A DNA stretch of 64,000 bases from Spizellomyces punctatus DAOM BR117 (GCA_000182565.2 KQ257466.1); one strand, 5' to 3'; positions 25,135-64,000 are shown, counted from the first letter of the stretch. A program made the numbers and translations. Notes: a model not told the origin generated them from the sequence alone.

Positions 25135-25558
25135 GGTTAACGTTGTGTGTATGTGCCAATACAAGGTTGTTCTGCACCCAAGTTAAAAAACAAGAAAACT
25201 CAAAAGTAAAAACAGTTGTGAATATTCCCACGTTCAATTGTAAGAGTGTGGGAATAAACTTTCAAAACGGGGGTTATCATTGTTTTATCCCACACACATT
25301 TAATCACATTAATTATTATTATTCTCACACAAAGAGAGAGAGAGAGAGAGAGAGAGAGTTTCATGTTGCAAATTGAAACGCTTTCTTCTCCTCACTCACA
25401 CACTCACACACACACACAAGACAACACGCGTTAGTCATGTGAATGACATTCTCTCTGTTGCAAAGGGGGGTTTCTTCTTTTGGCTTTTACTAGGGGAGCT
25501 TTCTCTCCCTTTATGGATACATGATGGATGAACATTGTCAGATGTAATATATTGTTCA

Positions 25559-25588
25559 TAGTGCGGAGCCGGTGGGTATTGGCACTAG
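25559..25588. repeat. Second perfect copy of the 30-nt Fanzor element terminus (TAGTGCGGAGCCGGTGGGTATTGGCACTAG); its leading TA completes a + strand CATA at 25557-25560
   Basis: Identical to 25633-25662 in direct orientation, separated by a 44-nt spacer. Confidence 0.95.
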
Positions 25589-25632
25589 TACAGTGATTCC
25601 AACCAATTGAATCATTAAAAGTATTCTATATA

Positions 25633-25706
25633 TAGTGCGGAGCCGGTGGGTATTGGCACTAGCACCCGCACCAGGGATTGAACCGGCGACAACCGGCTCG
25701 GAAAAC
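25633..25706 (-). ncRNA. Fanzor omegaRNA scaffold (element right end); guide expected to extend into about 25618-25632
   Basis: Minus strand reads GTTTTCCGAGCCGGTTGTCGCCGGTTCAATCCCTGGTGCGGGTGCTAGTGCCAATACCCACCGGCTCCGCACTA, starting 14 nt after the Fanzor stop. Internal GAGCCGGT/ACCGGCTC stem. Closely matches my recollection of the SpuFz1 omegaRNA. Confidence 0.88.
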
Positions 25707-25720
25707 CTAATCTAACCAAT

Positions 25721-27607
25721 CTAAGCTACGGCTGGAACACTCCTGCTGAACACTTCTGGTCTACTGTGTCCATCCAACATTGATTGCACGATTATCAGCA
25801 TATTGCAGGTGCTCAGCGTATCTCGATTCCAGTAGCGCATCGTCCAGGCTTGCTGACAGTTAGGGTTGGTACAACCCAGCAATCCATGGACTTTTTCAAT
25901 CTTGCCTTCTCGTCGTCGCCAAGGTCTTGAATGAGGTCGTGTTTTGAAACCTTTTTCAAGGAAGTCATCGGATGAACAGTGAGGGCAGACAGATGAGGTT
26001 TTATACTCATCGAGAAGGAAGCAGTTGATCCTGTTGCGCTTAAAGAGGGTGCGCCAACCTTTCGTCTTTGATGAGGTCTGAAATCTTGCAGTTCGACCGG
26101 CATCGCTCCAATCTCCCATCACAATGGTAAAGTTTTCACCGTACTTGTTGCGTAAGTTGGATATGAGGTTCGATTCACTCTTCTGACGGTTTATAAATGC
26201 ATGCCACTTCCACCGCGTGTGGGCAGGATGCGAATAGAAGTCCTTGCGGCGGTTCCAGTCGGCACGGCGAACGAGGAGATAGCGAGTAAAGTCCATGAGG
26301 TTCATCGTCTTGTGAGATGGTATTCGTGATTCTATGAGGTCAATACCGCCGGCTTTCATCCGCTGCCGTTCTTTTGCAAATCGACGGCTTCCAGTCTCCA
26401 CGGCTCGCTGGTTGGCGGTGTAGCGAAACGTACCATTGCCGTCTTGGCAGTAGAGAATGTCACGCTTGTTTGGGTCGATAACAATGACATTCTCTGCTGC
26501 TCGACAAGCAGGTAAGTTTTTCTCCACATAAAGCGCCGTCACCTCAGCTGTAAGAGTTGTTGCTGACTTTTTCCCACCGCTGCGCTTCCCATACTTGTCT
26601 GCTTCTGGGTGCTTTAGGTATACAGACACCGAGGTTCCATCCGTGGTGATCGAGCCTTCAAACTGCATACCGCGGCGAGACCGAAAAGCTTTGGTACGTA
26701 GATTACAGATGCGCATCCATAAATCGACCTTCTCGACGGCTTCTGCGTCTCGCCGCGTGATGCAAAGGATATGAGAGTAGAGGATGACGGTGTCGATCCG
26801 CACATGGCTTTGGATGAGGGAGCGGCGAAGTGGGATTGCACTGAACCGTCGAAATCCATGCTTTTCATATAGGCTTGACAACCGACAGTAGGCAGGGAAG
26901 AAGGCGAGAGGGTCTACAGTAACTGAATATGCGAGCGGCTTGTCTTGATCAGGAAATGGCAGGTTAAGTGTCCACATCTCTTCTAGAAGCTCACTCTCTT
27001 CAGCGGTCAAGTCATCCAGCGACTCGGGCATGATATCAAAAAGAAAAACTGACTTTAAGTAGCGTAGCCGAGTAAAGAAAGCTTTTCGCGCATCACTTTT
27101 CGGGGGCAGTCGCTGCTTGTGTCCCTTCACGTCGAGCCGCAGATTAATGTACCGAAGGAGCATCTGCATGAAATGTTCTTGAACGTTGACTTTCAGGTTT
27201 GTCATCATACTCGCTGTCAGGTAATTGATTGACTGCTGCTCGCCGTGTAGGTTTGGATGAGGAAAATCAACGATGCGGCAGTACTGTTGAACATATGGCA
27301 GCAAACAATCCCGCCGTGCCTTCTTTGCTTCCTTTCTTGGATGCCAAGCCTCCCCCTTGTTGAGAAGATAGAGAATTGCTTCGATTGTATCTTCATTTAC
27401 CGTGGGAAAGGTTGGTGCAGATAGGATGTAGAATTTGAGAGCGTGGGAAGCGTGGTCGGCGAGTTGATGGATGATGGCGATGTAATCTAGAAGCCGTTGG
27501 TGGTAGGTCTCATTAGGCAGGAAAGCTTTTGCAAAGGAAGTTTTGTTGCAGGTATGTAAGGTGGGTTTGTCGAGTTTTTCAAGCTTTTGCTTTTTCTTTG
27601 GCGGCAT
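25721..27607 (-). CDS. Fz1: Fanzor1 RNA-guided DNA endonuclease (TnpB/Cas12 superfamily), SpuFz1-like, 628 aa
   Basis: N-terminal NLS-like PPKKKQK. RuvC-I VIDPNKRD, Fanzor-type RuvC-II LLDEYKTS, Zn finger CPHC...CTNPNC, RuvC-III WNRD. ITTDGTSVSV motif. Intronless in an intron-rich genome. Confidence 0.95.
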   Translation of the reverse strand: MPPKKKQKLEKLDKPTLHTCNKTSFAKAFLPNETYHQRLLDYIAIIHQLADHASHALKFYILSAPTFPTVNEDTIEAILYLLNKGEAWHPRKEAKKARRDCLLPYVQQYCRIVDFPHPNLHGEQQSINYLTASMMTNLKVNVQEHFMQMLLRYINLRLDVKGHKQRLPPKSDARKAFFTRLRYLKSVFLFDIMPESLDDLTAEESELLEEMWTLNLPFPDQDKPLAYSVTVDPLAFFPAYCRLSSLYEKHGFRRFSAIPLRRSLIQSHVRIDTVILYSHILCITRRDAEAVEKVDLWMRICNLRTKAFRSRRGMQFEGSITTDGTSVSVYLKHPEADKYGKRSGGKKSATTLTAEVTALYVEKNLPACRAAENVIVIDPNKRDILYCQDGNGTFRYTANQRAVETGSRRFAKERQRMKAGGIDLIESRIPSHKTMNLMDFTRYLLVRRADWNRRKDFYSHPAHTRWKWHAFINRQKSESNLISNLRNKYGENFTIVMGDWSDAGRTARFQTSSKTKGWRTLFKRNRINCFLLDEYKTSSVCPHCSSDDFLEKGFKTRPHSRPWRRREGKIEKVHGLLGCTNPNCQQAWTMRYWNRDTLSTCNMLIIVQSMLDGHSRPEVFSRSVPAVA

Positions 27608-27628
27608 GATGATTGGAATAGAAAAATG

Positions 27629-27709
27629 GATGAAAGCCTGGAAAATGGGCAGAGAATGATGAAAGCCTATCGGCAGAGAATGATGAAAACCTGGGAAATG
27701 GGCAGAGAA
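27629..27709. repeat. Three imperfect short repeats (GATGAAAGCCT...GGCAGAGAA) in the Fanzor 5' leader
   Basis: ggcagagaa and gatgaaa(g/a)cct each recur three times. Confidence 0.8.
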
Positions 27710-27715
27710 GGCGGG

Positions 27716-27724
27716 TTTATATAG
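27716..27724 (-). promoter_or_regulatory. Candidate TATA box for Fanzor
   Basis: Minus strand CTATATAAA about 110 nt upstream of the ATG at 27607. Confidence 0.4.
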
Positions 27725-27741
27725 AGATATGACAACTGCGC

Positions 27742-27894
27742 ATTGGACCCGTTTTTCAATGGTGGAGCAACTGCAGAATATTCAATTCGTTCATTGCCGC
27801 ACATATTGGACCCGTTTTTCAATGGTGGAGCAACTGCAGAATATTCAATCCGTTCATTGCCGCACATATTGGACCCGTTTTTAATGGTGGAGCA
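27742..27894. repeat. 63-bp tandem repeat, about 2.4 copies
   Basis: attggacccgttttt starts at 27742, 27805 and 27868, and the units are nearly identical. Confidence 0.92.
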
Positions 27895-28186
27895 TCGTTT
27901 GTGCATCGAACCATTATCAAATCATAGTTCATGAGTCTAAATCGAGTAAAATTATATGAATAGGTTGATCGAGTTTGCATTCGCCAATGGATATTAACAC
28001 ATTGCTTCTATCACACGCTAGCAAAGGTTCTTTGTTCGTGTAGAGATCAACCTCTTTGACTGTGGATGCTCACACAGATGTGGTTACGTAATAAACGCCC
28101 CAGAATCATTTCCTTTTTCTCTTGATTCTATTTTGTCTTACTTCTATAGTAGTGGAGGGCGCTCATACTTGAACACACACACACAA

Positions 28187-28921
28187 ATGTTTACAGGCCA
28201 TATTGCCCTTGGGCTTTTCCTCTACTCCCTCTATCCATCCCTTCCCCCCGAGATCCCCCTCGTGGGCTCAGCATTCATTGATCTAATCAATGGCATCTTG
28301 CTCTTGTTATCCGTGGATCGCATCTCACCTGCCCCTCACCTCTCCCTCGGCGTGACCCTCGATTTCATCGACTATGATCATTCCTTATTGGCATGCATTG
28401 CATGGGGGGCCATGTATGCTGTCATGGTTCGCACGATGGTGAACAAGGAGCACCGCAACACGGCCGCTTTGCTTGCGTTTGGCGCTGTCGTGTCACATTG
28501 GGTCTTGGATTACTCTGTGCATCAAAAGGATTTGGCAATGTATCCCGGGTCGACTCTCAAATTTGGGACAGAGTTGTGGGAAACACATCCCTGGAGTGCT
28601 TGGTCGATGGAAGCAGTCTTTTCGCTTGGGTTGTGGGCGGCAACCGCTAAAAACCTCAGGCTGGACAAAAGCAAGTCTCTCAAGATGGCATGCGTTTTGG
28701 GACTCCTTCATTTGAATATCGTCCCACCACCCGGAGTGAATCCGATGCACATCATGGTGCACAGAGTGGATACAAATTGGTTGCGGCCGATCGGCGGCAT
28801 TGCGATTTTTTCGAGCTTTTTGATTGCGACATTGGGAATGTCAAAGGTCTTGAGGCAGTGGAGTACGGCTCACAACGTGAAGGAAGCGATAGCCAAGGCG
28901 CGAGTGAAAAAGACTCGCTAG
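28187..28921 (+). CDS. Membrane protein resembling YdjM/DUF457 metal-dependent hydrolases (intronless)
   Basis: MFTGH, IDL, DHSLL and SHWVLDxxVHxxDL motifs with several hydrophobic helices. Confidence 0.6.
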   Translation: MFTGHIALGLFLYSLYPSLPPEIPLVGSAFIDLINGILLLLSVDRISPAPHLSLGVTLDFIDYDHSLLACIAWGAMYAVMVRTMVNKEHRNTAALLAFGAVVSHWVLDYSVHQKDLAMYPGSTLKFGTELWETHPWSAWSMEAVFSLGLWAATAKNLRLDKSKSLKMACVLGLLHLNIVPPPGVNPMHIMVHRVDTNWLRPIGGIAIFSSFLIATLGMSKVLRQWSTAHNVKEAIAKARVKKTR

Positions 28922-29213
28922 AGAGACATTTCTTTTTTTATAGGATCAAGGTAGACTATAGTCCAGTATCCGGGTTTGTGATTGCATCATTCTCGGTACT
29001 ATCTGCATTAGCAATTTCTTGCTCTAGCAGTCTCTGTCGCAATTGTCGGGACGCGAAAGAAGCGGTAGCCAAGGCGCGAGTGAAAAAGACTCACTAGGGA
29101 GATCAAGATAGATTATAGGCTAGTATGCTTGATTGTGTTTAGTTCGCTCCCGGTACTATCTGCATTAGCAATTTCTTGCTCTAGCAGTCTCTGTCGCAAA
29201 TGTGCAATTGTCG
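28875..29213. repeat. Imperfect ~170-bp tandem duplication across two convergent gene ends
   Basis: 28875-28921 is similar to 29051-29097, and 28994-29042 equals 29151-29199. Confidence 0.85.
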
Positions 29214-29958
29214 AATCTCTCGCTTTGATCAGTCGCTCAGCCTTTTCAAGCGTCAACCCAGAATACCCTTTGGTGGGAGATGGCAGTGACGGATTGGCGG
29301 TTAGCGGCCCTGACCCCGCACTCTCCAGGCGCTGCCGCAAATGGTCTACAGTGCTGTCTTTGGCTCTCAACAGTTTTTCAGCCTTTTCGAGTGTCATACC
29401 TGTCGCAGTCACAACAGGCTGAGCAGGTGAAGGAGAGACCTGGCGAGGACGGCCTATCCATCCGCCCAATTCCAGCACCTCTTTGGTGACCTGCTCAATG
29501 TGCCTGAATCTTGCACTTCCCAACAATACCCCTCCATACCACCGCGAAACAATAACAACAACATCAACGACTTGAAATTGTTCTAAAATTTTGGCAATTT
29601 TAGAGCCCGCCCATTTTTCGCCGTCGTCGTCGTAACCAGATACGACACCAAAGTCGTCAGGTCCCTCCAATCCGGTTTTTCCGGGTTTAAGAGAGAGATA
29701 CCTCCATGCCCTAATATTATGGGATGCATTTTGGGTTGCTTTGGAGCTTGTTATCGTTTGGGTGAGACGGGAGAGATCTTGGGGTGAGCGGACTTCTGCA
29801 GCATGTGCGACAAATGTTGACTTTCTGTCACTTATCGAAGAGGACACAAAGATGGTTGGCGGTGGGTTCGTGTTTGTTGCGGGGAGTGCGTCATGGCTTG
29901 TCCTTGGTCTCTTGTCATCCTGAGGTGATGAATGACTGTCTGGCAGCGAGCGTTTCAT
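29113..29958 (-). CDS. IMPACT/YigZ (UPF0029) family protein without RWD domain
   Basis: DRKSTFVAHA, ASHNIRAWR, DDDGEKWAG and VSRWYGGVLLGSARF motifs, plus a duplicated C-terminal helix (TLEKAExLxxAxDSTxxHLRQRL). Confidence 0.85.
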   Translation of the reverse strand: MKRSLPDSHSSPQDDKRPRTSHDALPATNTNPPPTIFVSSSISDRKSTFVAHAAEVRSPQDLSRLTQTITSSKATQNASHNIRAWRYLSLKPGKTGLEGPDDFGVVSGYDDDGEKWAGSKIAKILEQFQVVDVVVIVSRWYGGVLLGSARFRHIEQVTKEVLELGGWIGRPRQVSPSPAQPVVTATGMTLEKAEKLLRAKDSTVDHLRQRLESAGSGPLTANPSLPSPTKGYSGLTLEKAERLIKARDSTIAHLRQRLLEQEIANADSTGSELNTIKHTSL

Positions 29959-30786: not shown

Positions 30787-33700
30787 ATGGAACAAGAAAC
30801 GGAACACGATACAGTCGAAGGGCCGGTCGATACTACACAGGTTGATACAGCTGTCTCCCCATCCGTCGCCAATGATCCGGTCCTCGCAGCAATTCAATCC
30901 GCAGGTGTTGCCCCCGTGCGGTTCAGATCAGCCTGCGATGCATGCAGAGCGAGAAAAGTCAAATGCACTCCCATACAATCAAATTCACCTCCCACCACCG
31001 ATAATCCACACGATGCCCCAACCGGTGAACCTTGCGGACCTTGTTGGAGAAATAAGCGAGAGTGTTCATTTGGGATTCGACAGGCTCGCAGACCTTCGGG
31101 TCCCAAACCGCTCATTCATCATGGAAAGAAACGGATGGGTCCTCGTGCACGCCTGTCTGCAGATCTTCGAGCAAAGATTAAAGATGCAGAGACAAGATTG
31201 CGAGATTTGCAGATTCAGCGTTTGGTAAAATAAATGAAATGGCGATTGTGTCTACTCGGCTTGTAACTTTTTCTTTGCTAATGACTTTTTTTTTTTTTGT
31301 TTTACGATAGACGAGCGACAAACCCGGTACGCGAACATCTGCAGATGATAAAATCGCTAGCCTCGGGTTGTCAACCGACCCTCTCTCCCCAACATCCCCA
31401 TCTTGGAGCAATACCCCGCCAATGGAATTGATTGAAACACTTTCCAATCGGTTCTTTAATGTGAGGATGCAAATGCAGCTATTCCAAGTATCCTTTTCCA
31501 TTTTTATTCACCCTTTTTTCTTTCTTTTCAAAGACATGGTACAATACGGTCCCAAACATCTTTCTCCACCGCCGAACCTTCCTCGCCACTCTCCATCAAC
31601 AACCCGACTACCTTTTATACGCCGTTTGCGCCCTGAGTGCCTGGAGACATCCACCATCACCAGCATCAGATGGGGAAATCTGGACAGCCCAAATGTTTTT
31701 CAAACTAGCTCGAAAAAAAGTACATAATTTAGTCGACAAGCCGAGCTTGGCTGCAGTGCAGGCTCTCATATTATTGGGAACATTTGCGGGATGTAAGTAT
31801 ACCCTTTATTTTGTCGGGTTTTTTTTTGCATTGGGGTGCTGCTTGACTCGTGTTTTGGTCGCTGATGTTTTACGAGGTTCACCAGCGGATACTTACTCTT
31901 GTATCTTGTAATTTTTTTTTAAAATGTTTCCCTAGGCACGGGAAAACGTGAGTTGCAGCGATCAACATGTTTGTGTATCGCGAATTCGCACCCTTGACTG
32001 GTGGAACTTTTTTGTAGCATCTCTCGGATTTCGCTACTGTACAATGTCCACGCACATGGCCATGGCTCTCGGTCTCGATTCTCCCGTCGCATCGCCATCC
32101 ATGAGCGATCCTATCTCCGCTTGGTTGGAACGTGAGACACAAGCTCGGACGTGGTTTGCATGCCTTCATAACGAAGTTTGTTTAAAAATGTGGACAAATC
32201 AGGACCATGTTTCTGCTTTGTCTGACCGGCTGCAAGCGGGACAGAAACTTGCGCGGGAAGATGTTTGGCAAGAGGGTAAACCCCGTGACGACGACACAAG
32301 AGATTTTTGCATGTTCGACGCTACACTGCTCCTTTTACGAGGTCACGCTGAGACCGTCCGGGTTTTTGGGATTATTTCAAGGTGACAGGACGACTTACCC
32401 GTCACGGANNNNNNNNNNNNNNNNNNNNNNNNNNNNNNNNNNNNNNNNNNNNNNNNNNNNNNNNNNNNNNNNNNNNNNNNNNNNNNNNNNNNNNNNNNNN
32501 NNNNNNNNTCGCTCAGTGAATCCCCGGATTCCGACATCACCCCAATTTTGACACCCACCTCAAACGACTACCGAAATTTGGCGCAAAGTACCCACGAACG
32601 ACTTCACAAGTGGTACACAACCTCCACCCTGGATTCAGAATATACTTCCCAAATCATTAAAGGGCAAGAATGATGTGACATATTCAGTCGATTTGGCTAG
32701 CCAGGACCCGCCATGCTGGCATGCGGCCGTCCTTATCATATATTATTTGACATTACTGATTTCGGTGGATTATCCTGAGGTGATGGCTGGTTGGTATTCG
32801 TTCACGTAGTGGTAGATGACAAACACAGGATAAGCTAACATGCATGAATTAGAAATACGTACCGACCCGATGGGAGCGCCAAATACGGGCGCGGCCTACC
32901 GAGCCTGCCAACAAGCTACCGACGAGATGGGCATACTTTTAGAAAGCCTCCTGAGCGTGGACGATACGCTGACACATATTGCATCTGGGACGATTCTTCC
33001 TGTTTTTCTTTCTGGACTGGTATGATCCGAAAAACTAACCTGTGTATCAGATTGGATCCCCACTTCCTAACCTATGAACAAAAAAACAAAATCCAGTGCG
33101 CAGTAATATTCCTCAAACTCTCCCCACGAGCCGAAACGTACCTCTCGATGCAAAACCATCTCCGAGCACTCGCACTACACGCAAAAACCTATGTCGTTGC
33201 CGCGAAACTACATTCCCAACTTTGCCACATGGTTCAAAGCTTACTCGACAAAACTGTGCTGGACACGCACGAGTTGCATGGCGCACGCGGTGCATTAGTA
33301 GAGTTGGAAGATCAAGGACAATGGGGACCCGTCATCGGACTGGGTATCCTTGGAAAGGAGCAACTTGGCAAAGACAGCGGAGTGGATACCAGTGGGGGAA
33401 TGGCTGATCATGTACTTGCCAAATGTTTGAGGGAGTTCAGCCCGGGCACCACTGATACTCTTCTTTTCTCGCCTACTGAATATCAGAACGATTCGCGTAC
33501 ATCTCAATACGTATCTTCCCACGATTCGTCCAACGATTCCAGCAAATCGCCACCATCTGAATACCCGCCTGATTCGACATCCACATGGACAGGCTACAAC
33601 CATTCACCCTCATCGTACACCATGGATAATTACACACCGGGCGTGAATTGGGTATCAGATCCTAATGGTGCCGCGTATAGGGGCTTGAATACTCGACATG

Positions 33701-62698: not shown

Positions 62699-64000
62699 AT
62701 GCTCCTTGATGGATTTTCGCAATTTATCTACCAACCCCTTTCCCATCTCTTACAACCACGGATATTTTGCAGCTGTGCTCTCAAGGCTGCAGCTATGACC
62801 ACTTCTTCACCTCTACGAAGATCTACCCGACTTGTAGTGCAGCAAGTAACAACCAAGACGATGCAGTCTGTGGCCCCGGAGACAGCAGAGGTTAAAGGTG
62901 AACGACGACGAGTTGCATCAAAGGCAGTGTCCTACAAAATTGAGGAAGTAGACGACGTGGAAGAAAGAACTGGTGCCCCCGAGACCGGCACCGAGCAAAA
63001 GAGATGGCCAAAGCAGGAGAACAACAAAAATGGGCAGGAAGACAAGCCATTGAAGCGGCGAAGGAAGAGGGCGGAGGCGGTAGATGCTATAGATGGCGAT
63101 GAGGTGAAAATGCCAGATGATGATCTAAAGACGAAGCGTCAAAAGCACCGAAACAAGGGTATCAGTGATGACAAAGATATGGTAGCATCAGGTGAACCAA
63201 CGGAAGCAGAGAAGGAGAAACCAGCGAAACGCCGAGTCACAAAAGCAAAGAGTACGGCAAATGAAGAGGATGAGAAAAGCATCAAAAAGCCCAAAAAGCC
63301 AAAGGTGGAAAAGACCATTGAAATTCCTGACATGGATACCGAATATATGTGGGCCCGTGCCAAAGCATGCAAAAAGTACGTCGGTGCGCATGTGAGTGCC
63401 GCCGGTGGAAGTCATAATGCGGTTATCACCAGTACCAAAATAGGGTATGAGCGCTCCCTTTATTTCCACAGAACCTTGTTAATATCTTTGTATCAGTGGT
63501 ACATGTTTTGCGCTCTTTGTCAAAAACCAACGCAGATGGGAATCCCCACCAACTCCTGGCTCACAAGTGGAAGCGTTCGCCAAAGCTTGCCCTCTGGCTG
63601 GCTTCTGTCCCAAGACACATGTCCTACCACATGGGTCTTATTTAGTTAATCTGGCGAACTATGAGGATGAAAGGGCCACGCAAGCTTTCAATGGCTTTGT
63701 GGACGAATTGAAACGATGCGAAGAGCTTGGGATCGGATTATACAACTTCCAGTTGAGTATCGTTGAGGCAGTGATTTTAAGAATATTGACATCTTAGCCC
63801 TAATGGNNNNNNNNNNNNNNNNNNNNNNNNNNNNNNNNNNNNNNNNNNNNNNNNNNNNNNNNNNNNNNNNNNNNNNNNNNNNNNNNNNNNNNNNNNNNNN
63901 NNNNNNNNNNNNNNGGGTGGGAATATGTCTCGACACTTGTCATATGTTTGCAGCAGGTACATGAACAGCATCTGAGCATGCGCGGGACTATATTCTTAAT
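62699..64000 (+). CDS. APN1: Apurinic/apyrimidinic endonuclease (endonuclease IV family), truncated by gap and window end
   Basis: KKYVGAHVSAAGG, VLPHGSYLVNLAN and DELKRCEELGIGLYNFH motifs after a long Lys/Glu-rich N-terminal extension. Confidence 0.88.
63807..63913. other. Assembly gap
   Basis: Run of n. Confidence 1.

What the first reader, a model, noticed from the sequence alone, without database searches (positions are those of the whole stretch)
25633..27607. Apparently intact eukaryotic RNA-guided nuclease system: Fanzor1 plus cis-encoded omegaRNA
Seen: an intronless 628-aa ORF with all three RuvC acidic residues (DPNKRD, DEYKTS, NRD), a CxxC/CxxxxC zinc finger and an NLS-like N-terminus. 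A structured 74-nt segment begins 14 nt after the stop and ends in TA. Known: Fanzors are eukaryotic TnpB derivatives whose omegaRNA comes from the transposon right end, with flanking DNA as guide; the characterised SpuFz1 uses a 5'-CATA TAM. Inference: this is a diverged SpuFz1 paralog (it seems slightly shorter than the protein I recall, with substitutions throughout). It may be an untested programmable nuclease variant, with native guide about UAUAUAGAAUACUUU.
Basis: partly seen in the sequence, partly recalled or inferred. Interest (0 to 1): 0.9.

Follow-up and report, generated by a model that had tools for sequence, protein, structure and literature searches.

The report
Known Fanzor1 transposon copy, Spizellomyces punctatus

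Summary
Window 25721-27607 (-) is an uninterrupted 628-aa ORF. It matches the solved SpuFz1 structure 8GKH at E=0 and is 548/626 (87.5%) identical to SPPG_07727, which is SpuFz1.

Every published functional residue I mapped is kept:
- 4 of 4 active-site residues
- 6 of 6 TAM-reading residues
- 10 of 10 nucleic-acid contacts

A 75-nt segment (25707-25633, -) starts 13 nt after the stop. It folds into two stem-loops, z -3.24. It ends in a 30-nt right-end repeat, followed by a 15-nt flank that would serve as the guide.

An exact neighbour-protein match places the window in the S. punctatus DAOM BR117 assembly, on a contig of the same length as the one carrying SpuFz1. This element family, SPu-1, was described there in 2013. 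In 2023 it was catalogued as 42 Fz loci (19 full-length) and characterised biochemically and structurally. So the find is a paralog of a known system.

Three local oddities:
- No left-end repeat anywhere in the window.
- A second exact copy of the right-end repeat 74 nt downstream.
- The protein is absent from the protein collection searched.

I obtained no locus-specific RNA evidence.

The parts
25721..27607 (-). Fanzor1 ORF, 628 aa, single exon, stop codon included
   Evidence: ORF. (8GKH SpuFz1, E=0, 1246 bits, query residues 2-628). (548/626 identical to P0002 = SPPG_07727; closest paralog P0053 = SPPG_09432 at 565/627).
27584..27604 (-). Basic N-terminal peptide PPKKKQK (NLS-like)
   Evidence: position. 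It is identical to the SpuFz1 N-terminus in the alignment. [quoted passage not shown]
26459..26476 (-). RuvC motif I, DPNKRD. D378 and N380 correspond to SpuFz1 D383 and N385
   Evidence: The residue roles come from PMC10432273 (passage).
25994..26011 (-). RuvC motif II, DEYKTS. E534 corresponds to SpuFz1 E541
25820..25831 (-). RuvC motif III, WNRD. D596 corresponds to SpuFz1 D606
25856..25987 (-). Zinc-finger cysteines, CPHC (aa 541-544) and CTNPNC (aa 579-584)
   Evidence: C541 and C544 are nearly invariant across 24 relatives. A CCCC zinc finger in the NUC domain of SpuFz1 is stated in PMC10432273 (figure legend).
25633..25707 (-). Predicted omegaRNA scaffold, 75 nt. SL1 is at 25699-25680 (8 predicted bp, 4-nt loop). 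SL2 is at 25673-25633 (8-nt hairpin loop)
   Evidence: fold, z -3.24. The published description is a 75-nt scaffold, a canonical stem 2 with an 8-nt hairpin loop, and SL1 plus a single SL2.
25633..25662 (-). 30-nt right-end inverted-repeat sequence, the last 30 nt of the scaffold
   Evidence: The 30-nt IR length comes from PMC10432273.
25618..25632 (-). Predicted native guide, the 15 nt of flanking DNA after the scaffold (TATATAGAATACTTT)
   Evidence: The 14-15-nt guide length comes from PMC10432273. This is inferred. No read spanning the junction was obtained.
25559..25588 (-). Second exact copy of the right-end 30-mer, in the same orientation, start-to-start spacing 74 nt. Nothing scaffold-like lies in front of it
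   Evidence: 34 nt at 97%. (no similarity upstream of the repeat). (z +0.10). A 103-nt contig of run X1 spans 25559-25661 with 0 differences.

Best explanation
This is a copy of the SPu-1 transposon family of Spizellomyces punctatus DAOM BR117. It carries an intact Fanzor1 gene, a paralog of the characterised SpuFz1, and its cis-encoded omegaRNA.

**Inferred mechanism, by homology to SpuFz1**
1. An RNA of about 90 nt is made from the minus strand over about 25707-25618. It consists of a 75-nt scaffold (SL1 and SL2, ending in the right-end repeat) plus 14-15 nt copied from the flanking DNA.
2. The 628-aa protein enters the nucleus through its basic N-terminus and binds this RNA.
3. The complex reads a 5'-CATA motif with the conserved REC/WED residues.
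4. It cuts double-stranded DNA that matches the guide, using the RuvC site D378/N380/E534/D596.

**Self-targeting:** the locus should not cut itself. The four bases before the guide-matching DNA are ACTA, not CATA.

**Natural target:** it would be an element-free site reading CATA followed by the flank, as in the TnpB homing model.

**Mobility:** this copy has no detectable left end. It is probably no longer mobile as a unit, but it could still supply nuclease in trans.

**Shown here:** ORF integrity, homology, residue conservation, RNA position and predicted fold, and genome of origin.
**Inferred:** transcription, RNP formation, TAM and cleavage.
For: **Homology**
- phmmer against PDB gives 8GKH (SpuFz1) at E=0 and 1246 bits, Parasitella Fanzor1 at 1.9e-45 and Guillardia Fanzor1 at 9.8e-10.
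- A 24-sequence profile hits the same 3 chains and nothing else at E<=1.
- In the large protein search, 51 relatives passed E<=0.001. The top ones are S. punctatus DAOM BR117 proteins at 81-88% identity.

**Functional residues**
- 4/4 active-site, 6/6 TAM-reading and 10/10 nucleic-acid-contact residues named in PMC10432273 are identical.

**Frame maintenance**
- 9 indel events against SpuFz1, all in frame. By hand, (1/3)^9 is about 5e-5 if they were unconstrained.
- 78 missense differences but 0 nonsense. About 4.7 nonsense changes would be expected, P(0) about 0.009.

**RNA**
- 75 nt, z -3.24. The shape matches the published wording.
- An environmental relative, L008 (54% identity over residues 475-622), has a small stem-loop directly after its stop. 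A second stem-loop follows whose base and 3' end (GGUGCG...CGCACUA) match the window's.

**Origin**
- The neighbouring 244-aa ORF is an exact database entry on a contig of 566,506 bases. SPPG_07727 (SpuFz1) sits on a contig of the same length.
Against: - **No profile hit:** the local Pfam-A copy gave 0 families at E<=1. NCBIfam gave only a sub-threshold zinc-ribbon match. Relatives carry a precomputed PF26935.1, whose name I could not see.
- **No left end:** no left-end repeat anywhere in the 64-kb window at <=11 of 30 mismatches, ungapped. A gapped local alignment of the 1.9 kb upstream (27608-29500) gave only a 14-nt match. There are no 11-mer inverted seeds. The published 'IR on both sides with CA before the 5' IR' is therefore not met.
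- **Not in the collection:** this exact protein is absent from the 15-billion-protein collection. No 100% hit appeared.
- **No locus-specific RNA.**
- **Weak statistic:** conservation of 20 of 20 listed sites is weak evidence alone. 0.875^20 is about 0.07 by hand.
- **Ascertainment:** the frame argument is biased, because the ORF was picked for being intact.
- **No direct RNA comparison:** I could not compare the scaffold base by base with the published SpuFz1 omegaRNA. No tool gave me that sequence.
Confidence: 0.85

Rival explanations
1. It is a silent, immobile relic. The copy was recently duplicated and has lost its left end. It is not transcribed, and its intact ORF only reflects a young age. 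On this reading it is a non-functional remnant of an SPu-1 insertion, not a working nuclease/omegaRNA pair.
For: - No left-end repeat in the window.
- No gene model gives this protein in the collection.
- The odd tandem right-end repeat suggests local rearrangement.
Against: - The copy is not young relative to its paralogs. It is at most 90% identical to any of the 6 compared (565/627 to P0053). It differs from SpuFz1 by 78 substitutions and 9 in-frame indels, with no stop.
- All 20 mapped functional residues are kept.
- The scaffold folds as expected.
Confidence: 0.12
2. It is a domesticated host gene. This Fanzor copy would have been immobilised and co-opted for a host function. Its fixed guide would address one host site, or it would serve the many protein-less 'ghost' omegaRNA loci in trans.
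For: - The left end is missing while the ORF and RNA are preserved.
- PMC10432273 discusses Fz acting in trans with ghost omegaRNAs (discussion passage).
Against: - It is one of many near-equivalent paralogs, with no sign of distinct sequence constraints.
- No CATA + guide site exists in the window. The rest of the genome could not be searched.
Confidence: 0.03

Closest known systems
SpuFz1 (SPPG_07727; PDB 8GKH, 9CEU-9CEZ) with its omegaRNA, S. punctatus DAOM BR117
   Same: - Same genome, and a contig of the same length.
- 87.5% identical protein.
- The same catalytic, TAM-reading and nucleic-acid-contact residues.
- The same N-terminal basic peptide and the same zinc-finger cysteines.
- An RNA of the same size and shape at the same place behind the stop.
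   Different: - 628 aa against 638 aa, with 78 substitutions and 9 short indels.
- Arg at the positions equivalent to SpuFz1 C310 and C318.
- No left-end repeat, and a duplicated right-end repeat.
- A different native guide.
SPu-1 transposon family (Bao & Jurka 2013, PMC3627910)
   Same: - A single-ORF element encoding a TnpB-like protein of about 630 aa.
- A right terminal repeat followed by TA.
   Different: The family is described as about 2,100 bp with 33-bp terminal inverted repeats and putative TA duplications at both ends. Only the right end is found here.
Bacterial IS200/IS605 TnpB with right-end omegaRNA (ISDra2)
   Same: Works alike. A RuvC nuclease is guided by an RNA made from the transposon's right end, with the flanking DNA as guide and a 5' transposon-adjacent motif (PMC10432273 passages).
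   Different: - No sequence-level hit to TnpB in PDB, even with a profile.
- The Fanzor1 omegaRNA does not overlap the ORF here.
- The REC domain is larger, the N-terminus is NLS-like, and no TnpA lies nearby.

Membership tests
Fanzor1 (SpuFz1 clade) | Significant full-length sequence similarity to experimentally characterised Fanzor1 proteins | tested here: met
   8GKH at E=0 over residues 2-628, 9CF0 at 1.9e-45, 9CER at 9.8e-10; a profile search returns the same three.
Fanzor1 (SpuFz1 clade) | Complete RuvC active site (SpuFz1 D383, N385, E541, D606) | tested here: met
   D378, N380, E534, D596. The residue list comes from PMC10432273.
Fanzor1 (SpuFz1 clade) | CCCC zinc finger in the NUC/TNB domain | tested here: met
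   CPHC at 541-544 and CTNPNC at 579-584. The alignment places them on the SpuFz1 cysteines.
Fanzor1 (SpuFz1 clade) | CATA-reading residues (R96, Q129, Q130, N133, R291, Y345) | tested here: met
   6 of 6 identical. The TAM itself was not assayed.
Fanzor1 (SpuFz1 clade) | [quoted passage not shown] | tested here: met
   Position, length and predicted two-stem-loop fold fit (published wording). Base-by-base identity to the published RNA could not be checked.
Fanzor1 (SpuFz1 clade) | omegaRNA expressed and bound by the protein, with guide- and TAM-dependent dsDNA cleavage | not testable with these tools
   The read laying gave no locus-specific signal. Biochemistry is needed.
Complete SPu-1 element | 30-nt (Saito) or 33-bp (Bao & Jurka) inverted repeats at both ends, with CA before the 5' repeat | tested here: not met
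   The right-end repeat is present. No inverted copy occurs anywhere in the window at <=11 of 30 mismatches, and there are no 11-mer inverted seeds.
TnpB superfamily (profile level) | Hit to a curated TnpB / OrfB_Zn_ribbon-type profile | tested here: not met
   The local Pfam-A copy gave 0 families at E<=1. NCBIfam gave nothing relevant. Relatives carry the precomputed PF26935.1, which matched nothing in my scan of the local copy.

The most novel reading that the evidence does not exclude
This left-end-less copy is a naturally better, or differently tuned, nuclease than the reference SpuFz1.
- It already carries Arg at the two sites (equivalents of C310 and C318) where engineered basic substitutions raised SpuFz1 activity.
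- It lacks the acidic residue at the D487 equivalent (N480).
- It may be retained as an immobilised supplier of nuclease for the many protein-less ghost omegaRNA loci.
Probability: 0.15. Interest if true: 0.4.

Novelty: already known. Interest (0 to 1): 0.15.

Why it matters
It matters little for discovery.

- Fanzor1 of S. punctatus is the founding and best-characterised eukaryotic RNA-guided nuclease.
- Its copies in this very assembly have been counted in print: 17 full-length copies, 9 with intact ORFs, in 2013, and 42 loci, 19 full-length, in 2023.

The residual value is practical.

- The protein sequence of this copy is missing from the protein collection searched. Homolog-based engineering that starts from protein databases, such as the UniRef100 search described in PMC13434818, may therefore miss it.
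- It is a natural variant set for a genome-editing enzyme. That set includes two positions where engineers later introduced basic residues.

Tried and rejected
**Whole-genome searches**
- No genome is held for this window. I could not search the rest of the genome for the left end, the native target (CATA + guide) or the paralogous loci.

**Earlier findings**

**RNA evidence**
- The look-up of sequencing runs listed no holder on record as RNA.
- I laid 4 of the 9 listed runs.
- X9 (guessed RNA, contigs) and X8 (RNA library, contigs) laid nothing.
- X7 (raw RNA reads, about 6% of the run read) laid 3567 reads, of which 3548 fit only partly.
- Its large pile at 25671-25747 carries T>A at 25678 in 1626 of 1737 reads. 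It runs on into unlike sequence on both sides, so it comes from another locus.
- Reads over the 5' part of the ORF carry paralog-type differences.
- Nothing here bears on whether this locus is expressed.

**Other checks**
- Rfam gave only a sub-threshold mir-27 match at 25512-25573 (24.1 bits against a gathering score of 48.5), taken as chance.
- ARAGORN found no tRNA in 25300-26000. I ran it because the scaffold holds a GGTTCAATCC-like string.
- The window holds no second Fanzor copy (tblastn) and no ghost-type repeat.
- The published omegaRNA sequence is not printed in the main text of PMC13434818 or PMC11423790 (0 matches). Supplements were closed.
- Of the 11 metagenome relatives, I examined the 3' flanks of 4 (L002, L004, L006, L008) and scanned 5 (those four plus L003) for inverted repeats. 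None of the 5 had 11-mer inverted seeds between its 3' flank and its upstream region. Only L008 showed a clearly comparable RNA shape. L002 and L004 were suggestive but not analysed further. Several of these genes are interrupted in frame, so they did not help to define a left end.
- I considered that the second right-end repeat marks a second omegaRNA and rejected it. The 74 nt ending in it do not fold better than shuffles (z +0.10). Similarity stops 34 nt from the end.

Full report
**Observation**

Window 25721-27607 on the minus strand is one uninterrupted ORF of 628 aa.
- DPNKRD at aa 378-383
- DEYKTS at aa 533-538
- WNRD at aa 593-596
- CPHC at aa 541-544
- CTNPNC at aa 579-584
- the basic N-terminus PPKKKQK at aa 2-8

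Behind the stop lie 13 nt and then a 75-nt segment (25707-25633). The segment folds into a short 5' hairpin, an 8-bp stem-loop with a 4-nt loop, and a long stem-loop with an 8-nt hairpin loop. The energy is -33.7 kcal/mol against -23.3 for shuffles (z -3.24; 1 of 200 shuffles folds as well).

**What it is**

- phmmer against all PDB chains gives the Spizellomyces punctatus Fanzor1 structure 8GKH at E=0 (1246 bits, query residues 2-628). The Parasitella Fanzor1 follows at 1.9e-45 and the Guillardia Fanzor1 at 9.8e-10.
- A profile of 24 relatives finds the same three chains and nothing else at E<=1.
- In the large protein collection, 51 proteins pass E<=0.001. The top hits are S. punctatus DAOM BR117 proteins at 81-88% identity.
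- P0002 (SPPG_07727, 638 aa) shares its 90% cluster with the MBP-SpuFz1 construct of the PDB entry, so it is SpuFz1.
- The window protein is 548/626 identical to P0002. It is closest to SPPG_09432, at 565/627.

**Origin**

The neighbouring 244-aa ORF (28187-28921, +) is an exact entry of the collection, held by NCBI, UniRef and EukProt. It sits on a contig of 566,506 bases, the same length as the contig that carries SPPG_07727. The window is therefore from the S. punctatus DAOM BR117 assembly, very probably from the same scaffold as SpuFz1 itself. The window's own Fanzor protein is not in the collection. The public gene models appear to lack it or to model it differently.

**Function by homology**

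PMC10432273 (passages) names these SpuFz1 residues:
- the metal-binding residues D383, N385, E541 and D606
- the CATA-reading residues R96, Q129, Q130, N133, R291 and Y345
- ten backbone contacts to the RNA/DNA duplex

All 20 are identical in the window protein. On its own this is weak. At 87.5% identity, 20 unchanged sites have a chance of about 0.07 (hand arithmetic).

The reading frame gives a stronger argument. Against SpuFz1 there are 9 indel events, all in frame. There are also 78 missense differences without a single stop, where about 4.7 stops would be expected. One caveat applies: the ORF was selected for being intact.

**The RNA**

Saito et al. [quoted passage not shown] They found it transcribed as an 88-90-nt RNA that runs 14-15 nt into variable flank. 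The canonical RNA has a stem 2 with an 8-nt hairpin loop. The Cell 2024 paper describes SL1 plus a single SL2.

The window segment fits in position, length and shape. The 15 nt that follow it (25632-25618) are the predicted guide.

The four bases before the guide-matching DNA are ACTA, not CATA. The paper reports that any TAM mutation abolishes cleavage. The locus should therefore not cut itself.

Bao & Jurka describe putative TA target duplications, and Saito describes a conserved CA before the 5' repeat. Together these imply an empty site reading CATA + flank, which is exactly TAM + guide target. This step is my inference.

One environmental relative gives comparative support. L008 is 54% identical over residues 475-622. 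It has a small stem-loop directly after its stop and a second stem-loop whose base and 3' end match the window's. I could not compare the scaffold base by base with the published omegaRNA. No tool supplied that sequence, it is not printed in the main texts I searched, and supplements were closed.

**What departs from the published picture**

1. *No left end.* The inverse of the right-end 30-mer is absent from the whole 64-kb window at up to 11 of 30 mismatches. A gapped alignment to the 1.9 kb upstream finds only a 14-nt match. No 11-mer inverted seeds link the 3' flank to the upstream region. The 579 nt between the ATG and the next gene hold two tandem arrays instead: period 24 at 27629-27709 and period 63 at 27742-27894.
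2. *A doubled right end.* The right-end 30-mer occurs a second time, exactly and in the same orientation, at 25588-25559. Similarity extends over 34 nt only. The 74 nt ending in it do not fold better than shuffles. A 103-nt contig of run X1 spans 25559-25661 without a difference. The arrangement therefore also stands in a contig of run X1, which may, however, come from the same sample as the assembly. Read on the plus strand, this second copy is preceded by CA, which is the published left-end configuration. I have no tested explanation for it.

**Expression**

No listed run is on record as an RNA holder. The four runs I laid gave no locus-specific signal. Details are under Tried and rejected.

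**Comparison and verdict**

The family was discovered in this genome: SPu-1, about 2,100 bp, 17 full-length copies, nine with intact ORFs (PMC3627910). It was then catalogued as 42 loci, 19 of them full-length, plus 134 ghost loci. It has been characterised by small-RNA-seq, RNP pull-down, TAM screening, cleavage assays, human-cell editing and cryo-EM (PMC10432273). It has been studied further in PMC11423790 and PMC13434818.

Two full-text searches listed no paper whose title or abstract opening (all I read of most of them) concerns a different S. punctatus paralog. That does not show this copy is untested.

I rate the finding as already known and of low interest.

The only mildly new points are the missing left end, the doubled right end, the absence of the protein from databases, and two natural Arg residues. 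These Arg residues lie at the sites equivalent to C310 and C318 of SpuFz1, where engineered C310R and C318K raised activity.

Noticed in passing
window 25559-25588 (-) and 25633-25662 (-): The 30-nt right-end repeat is present twice in direct orientation, 74 nt apart start to start. The downstream copy has no scaffold in front of it. Read on the plus strand, it is preceded by CA, like a published left end. The cause is unexplained.
   Followed up: partly
window 27608-28186: There is no left-end inverted repeat upstream of the Fanzor ATG. The 579-nt intergenic stretch instead holds a 24-nt-period array (27629-27709, 3 copies) and a 63-nt-period array (27742-27894, 2.4 copies at 97%).
   Followed up: partly
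window 25670-25710: In RNA run X7, a very deep pile (about 1400x in the 25671-25747 bin) matches only about 40 nt, the SL1 part of the scaffold. It carries T>A at 25678 in 1626 of 1737 reads and continues into unrelated sequence on both sides. An abundant RNA from another locus therefore shares this 40-nt module. Its first-mate direction is opposite to that of reads over the 5' part of the ORF.
   Followed up: no
window ORF aa 304, 312, 294, 480: The window protein has R304 and R312 where SpuFz1 has C310 and C318. Published engineering found that C310R and C318K increase activity. Of the 5 other paralogs compared, 4 also have R at the first site and 3 at the second. The D300 equivalent is V294 and the D487 equivalent is N480.
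   Followed up: partly
window 25721-27607: The exact 628-aa protein is not in the 15-billion-protein collection, although the neighbouring gene's product is. The public annotation of this assembly seems to lack or mis-model this Fanzor gene.
   Followed up: partly
window 28187-28921 (+): The divergent neighbour is a 244-aa membrane-protein-like ORF with a sub-threshold match to Pfam YdjM (PF04307, E 1.6e-4, 21.7 bits against a cut-off of 29).
   Followed up: no
L008:3337-3417: In an environmental Fanzor1 relative, the 3' flank has a 5-bp stem-loop directly after the stop. A long stem-loop follows that starts GGUGCG and ends CGCACUA, like the window's scaffold (z -2.64). This hints that the base of SL2 and the terminal bases are conserved across diverged elements.
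   Followed up: partly
window 32409-32508 and 63807-63914: Two runs of N (100 and 108 bases), which are presumably assembly gaps.
   Followed up: no
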